From Escherichia coli (GTDB lineage Bacteria > Pseudomonadota > Gammaproteobacteria > Enterobacterales > Enterobacteriaceae): DNA of 4,468 nucleotides. The stretch lies in the NCBI RefSeq assembly GCF_003334785.1, contig NZ_QOWV01000046.1, one strand, 5' to 3'. Position numbers and translations under genes: made by a program. Positions 490 through 3,444 of this stretch are shown in pieces (positions within the stretch are counted from its first letter, which is position 1; every line of letters begins with the position of its first letter). The notes beneath the pieces are model-generated. The model did not search any database and was not told the origin of the DNA. It worked only from the letters and a program-made list of their open reading frames with translations.

Positions 490-900
490 TTAGATTTTAA
501 GTTTGTCCTGGGCTACAACGACAGGTTTTCCGGATGTGTCGATGACTCCTACCGTCGGTACGCCATTTTTGATTTCGAAGAACGGTTTGTTGCTACCTGA
601 GCACAGTTGATTGTCCCCGTATTCAATCATTTGTGCTTTCCCGGTTTTCAGGTTAACTACCGAGACAGTGTAGTCGTAGCACCAGGCACCACCACGTTCA
701 AGCACGAAAACATAGCTGTTATCTTTATAGTTGAACTGATTCTTTGTCTGGCAATTCATACCGTCAATTTCGGTACAGGAAAACGCTTCTGTAGTATTAA
801 CGTATTTGATGTTATTTGGCAGTTTTACTTGTTTCGCAGTAGCGAAGACAGAGAACAGAATAGTTACAGCAACGAGTAAAGTTTTGATAAAAGTTTTCAT
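490..900 (-). CDS. Small Sec-secreted protein of unknown function (136 aa, four Cys in mature part)
   Basis: ATG at 900-898 with AAGGAG Shine-Dalgarno 6 nt upstream (complement of 907-912). N-terminus MKTFIKTLLVAVTILFSVFATA-KQ is a classic signal peptide (basic n-region, hydrophobic core, A-x-A type cleavage site). Begins 15 bp after the stop of the upstream gene, so probably co-transcribed. A/T-rich codon usage. No family recognised. Confidence 0.7.
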   Translation of the reverse strand: MKTFIKTLLVAVTILFSVFATAKQVKLPNNIKYVNTTEAFSCTEIDGMNCQTKNQFNYKDNSYVFVLERGGAWCYDYTVSVVNLKTGKAQMIEYGDNQLCSGSNKPFFEIKNGVPTVGVIDTSGKPVVVAQDKLKI

Positions 901-915
901 GATAGACTCCTTAAA

Positions 916-1404
916 TTAGTTAACCGCAGCTACGTAGTTTTTCACCAGATACGCGAATTCATGCACGCCAATTTCACCGAACCAAACCAGGTAGGCCGGG
1001 TCATCTAAACCAAAGTAACGGTAGCCAACAACTTCATGGGTTTTTGGGTTATAGAGTGTTACGATAAAGTCCCAGCCGCAGGTATTGGCTTTGCAACCGT
1101 CGCCCTGGAACCAGACTGTACCGTTAATGTTTACTGGCGTGATACCTCCACCAGGGCCATCCATATAGCCGCCTTTACCGAACATGCCGCTCAGTCCGAC
1201 CGGTTTTAATGCTTTGTCGATAGCGGCTTTGTAGGTAGCGTCACCTTCGTACAACTCGTACGTTGATGGACACGCTCCAGGTTGTTCAGCCCAGGCTTCC
1301 GGGTTACAACTAAGAGCTTGTTTTACGGTAGCCGCTTCTGCGTTAAAGTTAAAGCCCGTGAACAGAACCGCCAGAAATAACATAAGGGTATGTAAACGTT
1401 TCAT
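916..1404 (-). CDS. Secreted periplasmic protein, possible Ivy-family (lysozyme-inhibitor-like) fold; 162 aa
   Basis: Preferred start is ATG at 1404-1402, giving MKRLHTLMLFLAVLFTGFNFNAEA-A, a typical Sec signal peptide; GGAAG lies about 11 nt upstream. The ORF track extends the frame to a GTG at 1707, which I regard as unlikely. The mature part contains KGG...WFQGDGCKANTCGWDFIVTLY, which resembles the KGG...CKPHDCG...IAV core of E. coli Ivy as I recall it. Product call is tentative. Confidence 0.65.
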   Translation of the reverse strand: MKRLHTLMLFLAVLFTGFNFNAEAATVKQALSCNPEAWAEQPGACPSTYELYEGDATYKAAIDKALKPVGLSGMFGKGGYMDGPGGGITPVNINGTVWFQGDGCKANTCGWDFIVTLYNPKTHEVVGYRYFGLDDPAYLVWFGEIGVHEFAYLVKNYVAAVN

Positions 1405-1692
1405 TGTAAATATTCTTCCGTTGTAAATGGCGCTGGAAAATTTCTCATCAGTGAAACCTTCCGGAAGTTTCCCCCCCTTGTATGATGTATATCGCCAGTA
1501 TTTTATTTCATCCCGGCTGTAATTTTTATATTCCCCGGCACGTGCAATAACGCTGACCAGAGATATAAGGCTCATTAATAACTTTACAGGTAATTTCATA
1601 ATTAAATTTCCAGTGAGTGAATTGACAGGTGAGGGGTAAAACTTTCTCTCAGGTAATATATATCTGAAAATATTTTCAATAACACCAGACAG

Positions 1693-1720
1693 GAAAAACA
1701 CCACCACAGGCGGTGGCGTT
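1693..1720 (-). terminator. Probable rho-independent terminator downstream of the dynamin-like gene
   Basis: On the minus strand, directly after the stop at 1737-1735: stem CCACC/GGTGG (1701-1705 with 1712-1716, extendable with one mismatch), 6-nt loop, then TTTTT (complement of 1694-1698). The stem is short, so moderate confidence. Confidence 0.4.
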
Positions 1721-1734
1721 TCTTTGGGGCGTCT

Positions 1735-2502
1735 TTATTTAATCCGGGCCATCGCGTTTCTCAGTGCCAAATCTGCCTCTTCCGTTATATCCAGGCTTTT
1801 CTGCAATACCGCCTCTGACCGGGTCAGTGCCTGACGTGCTGCCAGCGGTTTCCGGATATGCTCCATCGCCAGCATCGTGTCTTCATAGCCCTGCTGACGC
1901 CAGGCGTCGGTATGTGCCGATGTAAAACTGAGCAGACCGCCGCTGTTGCCACCATCACCTGCATATTTCAGCCTTTTCCGGGGACGGATCTCAAGGATTG
2001 TGGTGTCCGGAAAAGCCTGGCGATCCCATAAAGAACCGTCACTCAGATGCGTCACAATCACCATATTGCATCCGGCATCGACCAGAGGCGTCACAGGGGT
2101 ATTTCCCTGCATATTTCGCCATCCTCCCATACCACCATCACCGAACATTGTCCCCTGAACCTCACGGGGACGGAACAGCAGGGGCAGCGCGGCTGACGCA
2201 AGCAGAGCCTCTTTCTGCTGTCCGCGGGGCAGGCTCTGGATATGCTGAAAAACGGCGTTTTTCGTGGTTCCGACACCCAGTTCAGCACGAATGCAGTCAA
2301 TAATATCCTGCATGCCCCCTTCTGTGGGGTACAGCGACACATACAGCGGTAGCCCGTCTGCCAGAGCATCAGTATCAAGATAATGATCCATCAGCGCTGT
2401 CATCGCCATTGCGGTCTTTCTCATCAAATTTATTGACCAGTACAAACAGGCGGCCGGCTGATACGTCAGCAATGGCATTAAGCTCTTTACGGACGTCTTC
2501 AT
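1735..2502 (-). CDS. C-terminal portion of the dynamin-like GTPase gene, read in a different frame (probable frameshifted continuation rather than an independent gene)
   Basis: The ORF overlaps the 3' end of the 2375-3325 ORF by 128 nt. Its first ~35 codons look non-coding, but from about residue 38 (ALMDHYLDTDALADGLPLYVSLYPTEGGMQDIIDCIRAEL) it resembles the G5 region and following helix that normally come 25-40 residues after an NKxD motif. It then continues about 170 aa to the stop at 1735. In-frame ATGs at 2424, 2409, 2403 and 2391 lack a convincing RBS. Confidence 0.5.
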   Translation of the reverse strand: MKTSVKSLMPLLTYQPAACLYWSINLMRKTAMAMTALMDHYLDTDALADGLPLYVSLYPTEGGMQDIIDCIRAELGVGTTKNAVFQHIQSLPRGQQKEALLASAALPLLFRPREVQGTMFGDGGMGGWRNMQGNTPVTPLVDAGCNMVIVTHLSDGSLWDRQAFPDTTILEIRPRKRLKYAGDGGNSGGLLSFTSAHTDAWRQQGYEDTMLAMEHIRKPLAARQALTRSEAVLQKSLDITEEADLALRNAMARIK

Positions 2503-3325
2503 CCGCTTTTGAGTTCATCTGGGTGTAATCCATCACAGCCAGAACCGCAGAGGCTTTCTGCAGTTGATCCCGCATCATCACTTCCATCTGCGGTTGTCCG
2601 GCCTCATTAGGGCCGGGGGTATCCAGCAGTGTGAGTGTTCCCTGGCATGCATCCATCCCCACCAGATGGCTGAATTCCACGTCGATCACCGGCAGTTTCT
2701 GCACTTCTGCGTATTCATCAAAAGGAAATTCAGTCCCCATTGCCGCAGCAAGACGAACCAGATCGTTTAACGATGCCAGTCCGGTAAAGATTTCCTCCTC
2801 CCCGTGGTATTCATTTTTGAGCCAGCCATCATCCGTCAGAATATCCAGCAGTTCGCGGGTATCCCCGGTTTGCTGCAGGGTCTGTGCGACCTGCTGTCCT
2901 GCCGGGGTGGCGAGTTTTTCCTGCAGTGTGATTAATAAATTGCGGACAGGCTGAATATGTTCCAGATGGAGAACCGGCTCAGTTTTTCCGGGAACGTGGC
3001 GGATGAGCGTCGGTACAGAGGTCATGGGGCGGTTACGGTTAGGCAGAATTTCCTGCCCCACAATGGCGTTGATGGTGGTTGATTTGCCTGCTTTCATCGT
3101 GCCGACAACAGCCAGCACCATCTCCCTGCGGGCGGTTTTGATTTGTTCGCCCTCCAGCTCCTCAATTCTTTTCAGTGCTTTCTGTTTATCAAAAAGCAGT
3201 CTGTTTTCGTTCTTACTGTCAGATAACACATCTGGCTCCTCAACCATTTGCCGGAGCAGATTAATGTTCAGTTGCAAAAGTCGGTCGGCTTCATCACAAA
3301 GCAGGGCGATGTTCTTTTCGTGCAT
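2375..3325 (-). CDS. Dynamin-like GTPase, N-terminal segment carrying G1-G4; reading frame ends prematurely
   Basis: ATG at 3325-3323 with AGGAAGG Shine-Dalgarno 7 nt upstream (complement of 3333-3339). Motifs seen in translation: P-loop GTMKAGKST followed by TINAIVGQEILPNRNRPMTSVPT (dynamin/BDLP-like G1 and switch I), LLDTPG (G3) and LVNKFD (G4). The frame stops 14 codons after G4, before any G5, which argues that the gene continues in the 1735-2502 frame. Confidence 0.75.
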   Translation of the reverse strand: MHEKNIALLCDEADRLLQLNINLLRQMVEEPDVLSDSKNENRLLFDKQKALKRIEELEGEQIKTARREMVLAVVGTMKAGKSTTINAIVGQEILPNRNRPMTSVPTLIRHVPGKTEPVLHLEHIQPVRNLLITLQEKLATPAGQQVAQTLQQTGDTRELLDILTDDGWLKNEYHGEEEIFTGLASLNDLVRLAAAMGTEFPFDEYAEVQKLPVIDVEFSHLVGMDACQGTLTLLDTPGPNEAGQPQMEVMMRDQLQKASAVLAVMDYTQMNSKADEDVRKELNAIADVSAGRLFVLVNKFDEKDRNGDDSADGSLS

Positions 3326-3372
3326 TATTTAACCTTCCTAAGACGCATTTTCATGACAACCACGGAGGAGGT

Positions 3373-3444
3373 CATTTACTACAAACGATCGTTTATAACG
3401 ATCGATATGATAGTAACGATCGATGTATTCTATTAACTTGAGAA
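3373..3444 (-). promoter_or_regulatory. Sigma70-like promoter with three clustered CGATCG (Dam GATC) sites at and just downstream of the predicted start; candidate methylation-sensitive switch
   Basis: Minus-strand -35 TTGCGT (3444-3439), 17-bp spacer, -10 TAGAAT (3421-3416). GATC at 3407-3410, 3389-3392 and 3376-3379, each inside CGATCG. TAACGATCGAT is directly repeated (3385-3395 and 3403-3413), with a third AACGATCG at 3373-3380. Lies 50-120 bp upstream of the dynamin-like ATG. The promoter call is by eye, with no experimental support. Confidence 0.4.

What the first reader, a model, noticed from the sequence alone, without database searches (positions are those of the whole stretch)
490..3444. 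About 3 kb of cargo in the variable slot between a YeeP-like GTPase gene and a DUF932 gene
Established knowledge: in CP4-type islands the YeeP/YfjP GTPase gene and DUF932 (YfjQ-like) gene are conserved backbone, and accessory cargo such as Ag43 is found after the GTPase gene. Seen in sequence: here the slot carries a dynamin-like GTPase gene plus a two-gene secreted-protein operon. The secreted-protein genes and the 330-bp spacer 1405-1734 are visibly more A+T-rich than the flanking backbone, suggesting a separately acquired insert. Each unit has its own terminator. Whether the GTPase and the secreted proteins act together is unknown.
Basis: partly seen in the sequence, partly recalled or inferred. 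Interest (0 to 1): 0.6.

Follow-up and report, generated by a model that had tools for sequence, protein, structure and literature searches.

The report
Deletion-scarred dynamin–patatin island cargo
The "cargo" is a broken copy of a gene block found in about 40-45% of complete E. coli genomes (dynamin-like GTPase, partner protein, phospholipase, then small exported proteins), so it is ordinary, though the block's function is still untested.

Summary
The window is a CP4-44-type E. coli island, with all genes on the minus strand. The slot between the frameshifted yeeP-like GTPase gene (3543-4414) and the DUF932 gene (1-269) does hold about 3 kb of cargo. It is not an intact "dynamin gene plus secreted operon".

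- **Deletion.** A 2,775-bp deletion (junction 2401/2402, 2-bp microhomology) joins codons 1-308 of a CrfC/RdcA-like dynamin gene, out of frame, to codons 135-356 of a patatin-like phospholipase gene. The YjcZ/RdcB-like gene between them is gone, and so is the lipase catalytic serine.
- **Prevalence.** The intact three-gene operon is in 2,443 of 5,426 complete E. coli genomes and is annotated by PGAP. The exact deletion is in 2.
- **Other genera.** The trio recurs as a unit in seven other loci, several beside BREX, McrB, Mrr and WYL genes. I read it as a candidate, untested, phage-defence module.
- **Exported genes.** The first is a divergent Ivy-family protein. The "330-bp spacer" contains the 5' remnant of a third exported-protein gene.
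- **Promoter.** An agn43-type promoter with three GATC sites precedes the operon.

Verdict: common and already annotated; interest is low to moderate.

The parts
3543..4414 (-). yeeP-like GTPase gene, a frameshifted pseudogene (island backbone, flank of the slot)
   Evidence: It is 872 nt long and the reading frame breaks inside the P-loop (IMGKSGP...). PGAP annotates it as 'GTPase family protein, frameshifted' in the identical record.
3387..3455 (-). agn43/flu-type promoter and putative Dam/OxyR switch. By homology: -35 TTGCGT at 3455-3450, -10 TAGAAT at 3432-3427, and GATC sites at 3418-3421, 3400-3403 and 3387-3390. The predicted transcription start is near 3421.
   Evidence: 47 of 59 aligned columns are identical to the K-12 flu regulatory region, including all three GATC sites, and 62 of 83 to the O157 cah regulatory region. 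The annotated isrC start in K-12 aligns with the first GATC. The same sequence lies upstream of the dynamin gene in SCEC020022, CFT073, K56 and MP1. OxyR binding and phase variation were not tested.
2403..3325 (-). 5' fragment (codons 1-308) of a dynamin-like GTPase gene, a CrfC/RdcA paralogue. The ORF runs on for 8 foreign codons to a stop at 2375.
   Evidence: 99.9% identical to L003 14176-16243. The G1 motif GTMKAGKS (aa 75), G3 DTPG (aa 235) and G4 NKFD (aa 298) are retained, and the C-terminal 490 aa are lost. The full-length parent matches NCBIfam CrfC at E 1e-166 with 556 bits, below the 1146-bit cut-off.
2401..2402 (.). Deletion junction, at a 2-bp CA microhomology. 2,775 bp are missing relative to the intact operon.
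   Evidence: Window 1-2402 equals L003 9001-11402, and window 2401-4468 equals L003 14176-16243. The same junction is present in only 2 of 5,426 complete genomes.
1735..2402 (-). 3' fragment (codons 135-356) of a patatin-like phospholipase gene. It has lost the GGGxxG oxyanion motif and the GASIG nucleophile (Ser42) and keeps DGG (aa 223).
   Evidence: 100% identical to L003. The parent protein matches Pfam Patatin at 7e-24. It is out of frame with the dynamin fragment.
1699..1715 (-). Terminator-like hairpin plus T-run, 20 nt after the patatin stop codon
   Evidence: Consensus scan. This sequence is conserved with MP1. It is probably leaky, because the downstream genes are co-regulated with the trio in MP1 (PMC12922286).
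1405..1599 (-). 5' remnant (65 codons, with its own signal peptide) of a gene for a ~180-aa exported protein. It is fused in frame to the next gene. PGAP therefore calls a chimeric 227-aa 'hypothetical protein' at 916-1599.
   Evidence: 49% identity over 63 aa to the N-terminus of MP1 SID94_RS19705, E 4e-18. DNA alignment shows about 700 bp missing relative to MP1. Many homologues are 160-161 aa long and start at the second Met.
916..1404 (-). Gene for a divergent Ivy-family periplasmic protein (162 aa including the signal peptide). Its disulfide loop reads CKANTC instead of the Ivy CKPHDC.
   Evidence: The family profile hits Ivy structures 1GPQ and 1XS0 at E 7.5e-13. Pfam Ivy matches 18 of 26 relatives, although not this sequence on its own. 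The AlphaFold2 model has pLDDT 88.9. The top eight Foldseek PDB hits are all Ivy, with target-normalised TM-score 0.63-0.73.
490..900 (-). Gene for a 136-aa exported protein with four cysteines, predicted mostly beta; family unknown
   Evidence: The ORF, signal peptide and an AGGAG ribosome-binding site are visible in the sequence. Homologues were found almost only in E. coli. It has no Pfam, PDB or Ivy relationship, and the model is poor, with pLDDT 59.
319..348 (-). Strong terminator-like hairpin (13-bp stem plus T-run) that closes the exported-protein unit
   Evidence: Consensus scan
1..269 (-). 5' part of the DUF932 (YfjQ-like) backbone gene, flank of the slot
   Evidence: PGAP annotation of the identical record. 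In this strain the gene is itself truncated further downstream.

Best explanation
**What it is (shown).** Window 490-3444 is a decayed copy of a standard cargo block of CP4-44-type E. coli islands.

The intact block has three parts:
- an agn43-type promoter region;
- a tightly packed operon with 4-bp gene overlaps, encoding a dynamin-like GTPase (798 aa, CrfC/RdcA paralogue), a YjcZ/RdcB-family partner (301 aa) and a patatin-like phospholipase (356 aa);
- a variable set of small Sec-exported proteins before the DUF932 gene.

In this window a single 2,775-bp deletion at a 2-bp microhomology removed the C-terminal 490 residues of the GTPase, all of the partner gene and the first 134 residues of the lipase, including its catalytic serine. 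What remains is two out-of-frame fragments. A second, older deletion left 65 codons of one exported-protein gene fused to the next. Two exported-protein genes are intact: a divergent Ivy-family protein and an unclassified 136-aa protein.

**How the intact block most likely works (inferred, about 45% likely).**
- By analogy with RdcA/RdcB, where the nucleotide state of the GTPase decides whether the pair activates its client protein, the island pair gates the patatin lipase.
- The lipase is a membrane-degrading effector.
- The whole forms a phage-defence (abortive infection) module. It is carried on mobile islands and is expressed in only part of the population through a Dam/OxyR-type switch.
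- The exported proteins are co-expressed accessory cargo. The Ivy-like one probably binds a peptidoglycan-cleaving enzyme such as a lysozyme or lytic transglycosylase.

In this window the trio is dead. At most the exported proteins still function.
For: **Structure**
- PGAP flags both fragments as pseudogenes.
- The junction is present in two independent assemblies and in no others.
- The intact trio is in 2,443 of 5,426 genomes, and its adjacency to the exported genes is in 2,204.

**Family assignments**
- Dynamin: NCBIfam CrfC, E 1e-166.
- Partner: Pfam YjcZ, 4e-70.
- Lipase: Pfam Patatin, 7e-24.
- Exported protein: Ivy by profile, Pfam on relatives, and fold.

**The trio is one unit.** All seven patatin homologues whose contigs could be read (46-64% identity; Pectobacterium, Yersinia, Vibrio, Pseudomonas, Plesiomonas, Enterobacter and one metagenome) sit in Dynamin_N-YjcZ-Patatin order. 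The lipase motifs (GASIG, DGG) and the GTPase G1 and G3 motifs are conserved in all seven, and NKFD (G4) in six of seven.

**Defence context**
- Neighbours include BrxL and PglZ and BrxR/WYL regulators.
- They also include McrB, Mrr and PDDEXK nucleases and integrases.
- A 2026 paper independently calls the trio a putative dynamin phage-defence operon and finds it the most up-regulated cluster in one MP1 lineage (PMC12922286).

**GTPase-gating analogy:** the RdcA/RdcB mechanism described in PMC6510439.

**Switch:**
Against: - No experiment links the trio to phage resistance.
- PADLOC-DB v2 has no model for it. There are only marginal partial hits: LeoBC at 8.6e-5 over about 60 aa and a phospholipase effector at 1e-4.
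- In Yersinia and Pectobacterium the neighbours are housekeeping or metabolic genes.
- The paralogy to RdcA/RdcB, and the position next to phase-variable adhesins (flu, cah), fit a signalling or envelope-remodelling role just as well.
- The MP1 co-regulation rests on two replicates, and some reads map to more than one copy, as the paper itself states.
- The Ivy-like protein lacks the loop histidine that I recall (from memory, not checked here) as being used by E. coli Ivy against lysozyme.
- The cluster of three GATC sites is not significant on its own (155 of 2,000 shuffles). Its spacing is 18/13 bp against 19/13 bp in flu and cah.
Confidence: 0.8

Rival explanations
1. One reading: the slot carries a functional dynamin-like GTPase gene and a functional two-gene secreted-protein operon, as an unusual, separately acquired pair of cargo units.
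For: ORFs of 316 aa and 255 aa are open. The G1, G3 and G4 motifs are intact in the 316-aa ORF. The exported genes are intact and lower in GC. Both units are followed by terminator-like hairpins.
Against: The 316-aa ORF is the first 308 codons of a 798-codon gene plus 8 out-of-frame codons. The 255-aa ORF is mostly the 3' end of a lipase gene that has lost its catalytic serine. Thousands of genomes hold the intact parent, and only two hold this junction. PGAP marks both as pseudogenes.
Confidence: 0.03
2. The intact trio is not a defence system. It is an island-borne paralogue of the RdcA/RdcB signalling pair or of LeoABC-type dynamins, and it remodels the envelope (lipid turnover, vesicle release, biofilm or c-di-GMP control). 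It is phase-varied together with adhesins such as Ag43/Cah and with periplasmic proteins, for colonisation.
For: There is full-length similarity to CrfC/RdcA and YjcZ. The trio lies directly after cah in O157 and in the flu slot here. It has an agn43-type promoter. It is co-expressed with exported proteins in MP1 (PMC12922286). RdcA/RdcB control a membrane-bound cyclase through its MASE1 domain (PMC6510439).
Against: No diguanylate cyclase or other membrane client travels with the trio, and the only constant third partner is the lipase. Outside E. coli there are no adhesin or exported neighbours, but defence genes and WYL regulators recur.
Confidence: 0.3
3. The exported-protein genes are functionally unrelated hitch-hikers. 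They would be a mix-and-match set of periplasmic inhibitor or immunity proteins, for example against lysozymes, lytic transglycosylases or cell-wall toxins delivered by competitors. On this view they merely occupy the DNA between the lipase gene and DUF932.
For: The gene sets after the lipase gene differ between E. coli islands. Homologues of these genes sit in a tandem array of small genes on plasmid p98232, where no dynamin, RdcB or patatin gene is annotated in the 11 kb examined. GC content is lower. One member has the Ivy fold. Internal deletions and remnants are present.
Against: They rise together with the trio in MP1 (PMC12922286). No separate sigma-70-like promoter was found on the minus strand between 1405 and 1734. 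The adjacency is very frequent, in 2,204 genomes.
Confidence: 0.5
4. The 227-aa ORF (916-1599) annotated by PGAP is the real product: one protein with an N-terminal extension.
For: The frame is open from 1599. The 223-227-aa form is common in databases, with a cluster of 1,706 member sequences. The extension is 92% conserved between variants.
Against: The extension is the start of a different gene. Many family members are 160-161 aa long and begin at the second Met with a signal peptide. A second, internal signal sequence would act as a stop-transfer segment and strand the cysteine-rich Ivy domain in the cytoplasm (inference).
Confidence: 0.2

Closest known systems
RdcA (CrfC/YjdA) and RdcB (YjcZ) of E. 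coli K-12, a GTPase pair that activates the diguanylate cyclase DgcE
   Same: Same two-gene architecture and the same families. The dynamin matches NCBIfam CrfC end to end (E 1e-166), and the partner matches Pfam YjcZ at 4e-70. The G1, G3 and G4 motifs are conserved.
   Different: It is a paralogue, not the orthologue: 556 bits against the 1146-bit cut-off, and about 30% identity according to PMC12922286. It is island-borne, it is always followed by a patatin lipase gene, and no DgcE-like client travels with it. In this window the partner gene and half of the GTPase gene are deleted.
Dynamin-type defence and vesiculation systems: Eleos/'Dynamins' (LeoA, LeoBC) and ETEC LeoABC
   Same: Bacterial dynamin-superfamily GTPases carried on mobile or defence islands. 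Dynamins are linked to phage defence in the literature cited by PMC12922286.
   Different: There is only a marginal 60-residue PADLOC hit to LeoBC (8.6e-5). The partner is different (YjcZ), and a lipase is added.
Patatin-like phospholipase effectors such as CBASS CapV, and RssA
   Same: Patatin fold with GGGxxG, GxSxG and DGG motifs in the parent protein. In CBASS such lipases are the killing effector.
   Different: Scores are far below the family cut-offs: CBASS_lipase 18 bits against 200, and RssA 32 against 272. No cyclase is nearby. In this window the catalytic half is deleted.
Ivy (YkfE), the periplasmic inhibitor of vertebrate lysozyme, and the P. aeruginosa Ivy structures 1UUZ and 4PS6
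   Same: Sec-exported small protein with the same fold and a conserved disulfide-bridged loop.
   Different: It is very divergent (15-20% identity) and the single sequence is not recognised by Pfam. The loop reads CKANTC rather than CKPHDC, so the histidine is absent. It has an extra N-terminal helical segment with a second cysteine pair. Its target is unknown.
The flu/agn43 (and cah) regulatory region of CP4-44: a Dam/OxyR phase-variation switch
   Same: Same position after yeeP. The -10 region and three GATC sites are 80% identical over 59 columns.
   Different: It drives the dynamin operon instead of an autotransporter. The spacing from the first to the second GATC is 18 bp rather than 19 bp. 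The rest of the isrC/flu leader is absent (no Rfam hit). Function is untested.

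Membership tests
Dynamin-like GTPase of the CrfC/RdcA type | GTPase motifs G1 (GxxxxGKS), G3 (DxxG) and G4 (N/TKxD) | tested here: met
   GTMKAGKS at aa 75, DTPG at aa 235 and NKFD at aa 298 in the window fragment.
Dynamin-like GTPase of the CrfC/RdcA type | Full-length protein of about 740-800 aa, including the C-terminal half | tested here: not met
   The window copy ends after residue 308, then has 8 foreign residues. 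The parent in L003 is 798 aa and aligns to CrfC model positions 1-736 of 742.
Dynamin-like GTPase of the CrfC/RdcA type | Score above the NCBIfam equivalog cut-off for CrfC (orthology) | tested here: not met
   556 bits against a cut-off of 1146. It is a paralogue.
RdcA/RdcB-type pair | An adjacent YjcZ/RdcB-family partner gene | tested here: not met
   The gene is deleted in the window. It is present in the parent and in all seven loci from other genera.
Patatin-like phospholipase (PF01734) | GxSxG nucleophile and GGGxxG oxyanion motif | tested here: not met
   Both lie in the deleted first 134 residues. The parent has GGGAVG and GASIG (Ser42).
Patatin-like phospholipase (PF01734) | Catalytic Asp in the DG[A/G] motif | tested here: met
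   DGG at parent residue 223 is retained in the window fragment.
Ivy (PF08816) | Sequence-profile match to the family | tested here: inconclusive
   The window protein alone has no Pfam hit. A profile of it with its relatives hits Ivy chains 1GPQ and 1XS0 at 7.5e-13, and 18 of 26 relatives match PF08816.
Ivy (PF08816) | Ivy fold | tested here: met
   The model has pLDDT 88.9. The top eight Foldseek PDB hits are all Ivy, with probability 1.00 and target-normalised TM-score 0.63-0.73.
Ivy (PF08816) | Disulfide-bonded loop CKPHDC, with the histidine that I recall (from memory, not checked here) as inserting into the lysozyme active site | tested here: not met
   The cysteine pair is invariant (C104, C109), but the loop reads CKANTC here. 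Relatives have CKAHAC or CExHNC.
Ivy (PF08816) | Inhibits C-type lysozyme or lytic transglycosylases | not testable with these tools
   This needs purified protein and enzyme assays.
Known anti-phage systems (PADLOC-DB v2: Eleos/Dynamins, CBASS effectors and others) | Model hits to the component proteins at system level | tested here: not met
   There are only marginal partial hits (LeoBC 8.6e-5, phospholipase effector 1e-4). Nothing matches RdcB or the exported proteins.
agn43-type Dam/OxyR phase switch | Three GATC sites in an OxyR-bound region just downstream of the promoter | tested here: inconclusive
   Three GATC sites are present and align with those of flu and cah. The spacing differs by 1 bp, the cluster alone is not significant, and OxyR binding cannot be tested here.
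CP4-44-type island backbone | yeeP-like GTPase, then cargo, then DUF932, antirestriction, yeeS, yeeT, cbeA and cbtA, located beside sbmC-yeeA | tested here: met
   Annotated context in L002, L003, L004 and L006. The source strain has a decayed version.

The most novel reading that the evidence does not exclude
The intact parent block, present in roughly 40-45% of complete E. coli genomes including Nissle 1917, CFT073 and O157:H7, would be an uncharacterised phase-variable immune module. An agn43-type Dam/OxyR switch would turn on, in a subpopulation, a dynamin-like GTPase and YjcZ pair that senses infection or nucleotide state and unleashes a patatin lipase (abortive infection). Co-transcribed periplasmic proteins, including a histidine-less Ivy variant, would protect or modify the cell wall. 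On this view the strong 'lysogen-specific' induction reported for MP1 is really a clonal ON/OFF phase difference.
Probability: 0.2. Interest if true: 0.65.

Novelty: already known. Interest (0 to 1): 0.3.

Why it matters
For this window, little.

The work does tidy up several annotation points:
- The widely propagated 227-aa "hypothetical protein" WP_000775500.1 is a chimeric ORF.
- Its real core is an Ivy-family protein.
- The 160-aa form in MP1 is complete, although it is flagged as partial.

The parent trio is one of the most widespread uncharacterised operons in E. coli islands. The observations made here make it directly testable:
- conserved catalytic motifs across genera;
- defence-island neighbours;
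- an agn43-type switch in front of it.

They also suggest a caution for transcriptomics. Apparent regulation of this cluster may be phase variation between picked colonies.

Tried and rejected
- **136-aa protein.**
  - Pfam gave only noise.
  - A PDB profile search found nothing.
  - hhalign against the Ivy-like family gave 3% probability.
  - The AlphaFold2 model was poor, with pLDDT 59, and its Foldseek search gave no hit below E=1. I assign no function.
- **180-aa MP1 protein.** No Pfam match.
- **Ivy-like protein as a single sequence.** No Pfam or NCBIfam hit. It was recognised only after an all-against-all profile search supplied distant relatives.
- **PADLOC.** No system-level match.
- **Rfam on the whole window.** No hit at E<=0.1, so no isrC-like RNA.
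- **GATC clustering as independent evidence.** Rejected: 155 of 2,000 shuffles reach three sites in 36 bp.
- **Consensus promoter scan.** It found no more sites than shuffles do, 4 against 4.5. The promoter assignment rests on homology only.
- **Literature.** Searches for dynamin, patatin and anti-phage terms gave one descriptive genome paper and the MP1 transcriptome paper, with no functional study.
- **Failed look-ups.** No supplementary tables of the MP1 paper are held as text. One contig look-up (P0181) returned nothing.
- **In-frame dynamin-patatin fusion protein.** Considered and rejected: the junction is out of frame.

Full report
**Where the window comes from.** The window is 100% identical to the chromosome of E. 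coli JKHS016 and 99.9% identical to AST198. All genes are on the minus strand. Annotated relatives place it in a CP4-44-type island beside sbmC-yeeA-tmaR. The backbone there runs yeeP-like GTPase, cargo, DUF932, antirestriction, yeeS, yeeT, cbeA, cbtA, yeeW. In K-12 the same slot holds isrC and flu (Ag43). The flanks are a yeeP-like pseudogene at 3543-4414 (872 nt, frameshift in the P-loop) and the start of DUF932 at 1-269.

**What the "dynamin gene" really is.** In most relatives, for example SCEC020022 (locus L003), the slot holds three overlapping genes:

| Gene | Length | Evidence |
|---|---|---|
| Dynamin family protein | 798 aa | NCBIfam CrfC, E 1e-166, 556 bits, below the 1146-bit equivalog cut-off; a paralogue of CrfC/RdcA |
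| RdcB-family protein | 301 aa | Pfam YjcZ, 4e-70 |
| Patatin-like phospholipase | 356 aa | Pfam Patatin, 7e-24 |

- Window 1-2402 equals L003 9001-11402 at 100% identity. Window 2401-4468 equals L003 14176-16243 at 99.9%.
- Hence 2,775 bp are missing, with a 2-bp CA overlap at the junction.
- What remains is dynamin codons 1-308 (G1, G3 and G4 motifs intact), followed by eight out-of-frame codons and a stop at 2375. After that come patatin codons 135-356.
- The patatin fragment has lost the oxyanion motif and the GASIG serine and keeps only DGG.
- PGAP marks both pieces as incomplete.

**How common it is.**

| Feature | Complete E. coli genomes (of 5,426) |
|---|---|
| Intact trio, at least 80% coverage | 2,443 |
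| Patatin 3' end through to the start of the first exported gene | 2,204 |
| Exported-gene pair | 1,880 |
| Switch plus dynamin 5' end | 1,979 |
| The deletion junction itself | 2 |

Genomes with the intact trio include CFT073 and O157:H7, and Nissle 1917 carries the switch-dynamin junction. The window is a rare decayed derivative. The rest of the island in JKHS016 is also eroded.

**Do the units belong together?**
- In E. coli the DNA after the lipase gene is mosaic.
  - O157 site 2 has cah-dynamin-RdcB-patatin followed directly by DUF932.
  - CFT073 has three other small ORFs with signal peptides.
  - MP1 has a 180-aa exported protein and then the Ivy-like gene, with no 136-aa gene.
- Homologues of the pair lie in a tandem array of small genes on plasmid p98232. 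No dynamin, RdcB or patatin gene is annotated in the 11 kb examined.
- Outside E. coli, all seven patatin homologues whose contigs could be read (46-64% identity) sit in the order Dynamin_N, YjcZ, Patatin. None is followed by homologues of the pair. The lipase and GTPase G1 and G3 motifs are conserved in all seven, and G4 in six.
- The trio is therefore the conserved functional unit, and the exported genes are separable cargo.
[quoted passage not shown] I identified those genes as dynamin, RdcB, patatin, the 180-aa gene and the Ivy-like gene.
- So the downstream genes are co-expressed with the trio, despite the hairpin after the lipase gene.

**The exported proteins.**
- The ORF at 916-1404 belongs to a family whose members are mostly 160-161 aa long and start with the signal peptide MKRLH....
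- An exhaustive profile search found distant relatives. Their alignment shows two invariant cysteines in a CxxxxC loop.
- That profile matches Ivy structures 1GPQ and 1XS0 at E 7.5e-13, and 18 of 26 relatives match Pfam Ivy.
- The AlphaFold2 model (pLDDT 88.9) retrieves only Ivy structures as its top eight Foldseek hits.
- It is thus a divergent Ivy-family periplasmic protein, with loop CKANTC in place of CKPHDC. It lacks the loop histidine that, as I recall from memory and did not check here, E. coli Ivy uses against lysozyme.
- Ivy proteins inhibit C-type lysozymes and, weakly, lytic transglycosylases (PMC10139938). Binding to a peptidoglycan-cleaving enzyme is therefore the most likely role, with the target unknown.
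- The 136-aa protein stayed unclassified.

**The "spacer".**
- Positions 1600-1734 are the lipase 3' region with its hairpin. They are nearly identical in MP1 for the first ~90 bp after the patatin stop (to about window 1650) and diverge nearer 1599.
- Positions 1405-1599 encode 65 residues with their own signal peptide. These are 49% identical to the N-terminus of the 180-aa MP1 protein (E 4e-18).
- About 700 bp are missing relative to MP1, and the remnant is joined in frame a few bases before the Ivy-like start codon.
- PGAP's 227-aa protein WP_000775500.1 is therefore a chimeric ORF. Conversely, the complete 160-aa MP1 gene is flagged as "missing N-terminus".

**Composition and terminators.** GC is 0.41 for the 136-aa gene, 0.49 for the Ivy-like gene and 0.39 for 1405-1734. 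It is 0.55 for the patatin fragment, 0.51 for the dynamin fragment, 0.58 for yeeP and 0.57 for DUF932. The contrast exists but is modest for the Ivy-like gene. Terminator-like hairpins lie at 1715-1699 and 348-319.

**Promoter region (noticed in passing).**
- The 217 bp between yeeP and the dynamin start align with the flu and cah regulatory regions: 47 of 59 and 62 of 83 identical columns. The aligned part includes a TAGAAT -10 element and three GATC sites at 3418, 3400 and 3387.
- In agn43 these GATC sites overlap the OxyR site, and Dam methylation there sets the ON phase (PMC3764049).
- The same sequence precedes the dynamin gene in SCEC020022, CFT073, K56 and MP1, but not in other genera.
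- The GATC cluster alone is not statistically unusual, and the first spacing is 18 bp rather than 19 bp. Phase variation is therefore a hypothesis.
- It would explain why the MP1 cluster differs between lineages "regardless of media" and does not track the lytic-lysogenic decision.

**Mechanism.**
- *Shown:* the anatomy, the deletion, the family memberships, the conservation of the trio and its motifs, and the neighbourhoods.
- *Inferred:* in RdcA/RdcB, GTP hydrolysis by the dynamin-like protein controls its interaction with, and activation of, a client protein (PMC6510439). In the island trio the only constant third partner is a patatin lipase.
- The most economical model is a GTPase-gated lipase.
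- Neighbours include BREX genes, WYL/BrxR regulators, McrB, Mrr and PDDEXK nucleases, and integrases. These favour an anti-phage, abortive-infection role, as PMC12922286 also suggests. I put this at about 45%.
- An envelope-remodelling or signalling role is about 30%.
- PADLOC has no model for the trio, and I found no functional study.

**Verdict.** The feature in this window is a pseudogenised copy of a known, very common island block. Interest is low to moderate (0.3). It rests on the uncharacterised parent trio, the Ivy-like assignment and the possible phase switch.

Noticed in passing
window 3387-3455 (minus strand): An agn43/flu-type promoter with three GATC sites lies directly upstream of the dynamin operon. 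It is 80% identical over 59 columns to the K-12 flu regulatory region. The junction of this region with the dynamin 5' end is present in 1,979 of 5,426 genomes. It may make the operon phase-variable through Dam and OxyR.
   Followed up: partly
window 916-1599; L019 1484-2869: PGAP's widespread 227-aa 'hypothetical protein' WP_000775500.1 is a chimeric ORF. It consists of 65 codons of a ~180-aa exported-protein gene fused in frame to a complete Ivy-like preprotein. As a result, the complete 160-aa MP1 gene is flagged as partial.
   Followed up: yes
L019 (E. coli MP1, NZ_CP139039.1 4061483-4067354): The five-gene cluster SID94_19700-19720, reported as the most up-regulated in Kapi1 lysogens (PMC12922286), is dynamin, RdcB, patatin and the two downstream exported-protein genes. 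The difference between lineages may be a clonal phase ON/OFF state rather than an effect of lysogeny.
   Followed up: partly
L009 (plasmid p98232-contig_4, 690-8190): A tandem same-strand array of about 13 small hypothetical genes. It includes homologues of the Ivy-like and 136-aa proteins and of the small exported proteins of CFT073. It also has several cytoplasmic proteins that share a C-terminal '...GW..V...G.QLLF.A' motif. It looks like an immunity- or inhibitor-gene array.
   Followed up: partly
L008 2833-4911 (CFT073): After the lipase gene CFT073 carries a different set of small ORFs with signal peptides (168, 212 and 161 aa, plus an 85-aa remnant). The region between the lipase gene and DUF932 is therefore a mosaic of exported-protein genes.
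   Followed up: partly
proteins P0209, P0210, P0242, P0246, P0248: Distant Ivy-like domains occur fused to other domains. P0209 and P0210 (about 315 aa) have a cysteine-rich C-terminal domain. P0242 (439 aa) has a C-terminal region that looks caspase-like by eye; this was not tested. In P0246 and P0248 the Ivy-like domain is C-terminal.
   Followed up: no
L001 (JKHS016 chromosome around the window): The whole island is eroded in the source strain. DUF932, the antirestriction gene and the JAB/yeeS gene are all partial, and the island abuts fragments of a Mu-like prophage.
   Followed up: no
L012, L013, L016, L017 (Vibrio, Pseudomonas, metagenome, Enterobacter): WYL-domain regulator genes lie immediately upstream of the dynamin gene in L012 and L017, and within a few kilobases of the trio in L013 (BrxR-like, upstream) and L016 (downstream). 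This suggests a different, WYL-type control outside E. coli, where the agn43-type region is absent.
   Followed up: no
PMC7696260, table of mutated genes: A resistance-evolution study of E. coli ATCC 25922 lists many variants in crfC (122), rssA (75), yeeP (10) and yjcZ (3). These are the gene names that this multi-copy island block would receive, so the variants may be artefacts of mapping reads between paralogous copies.
   Followed up: no
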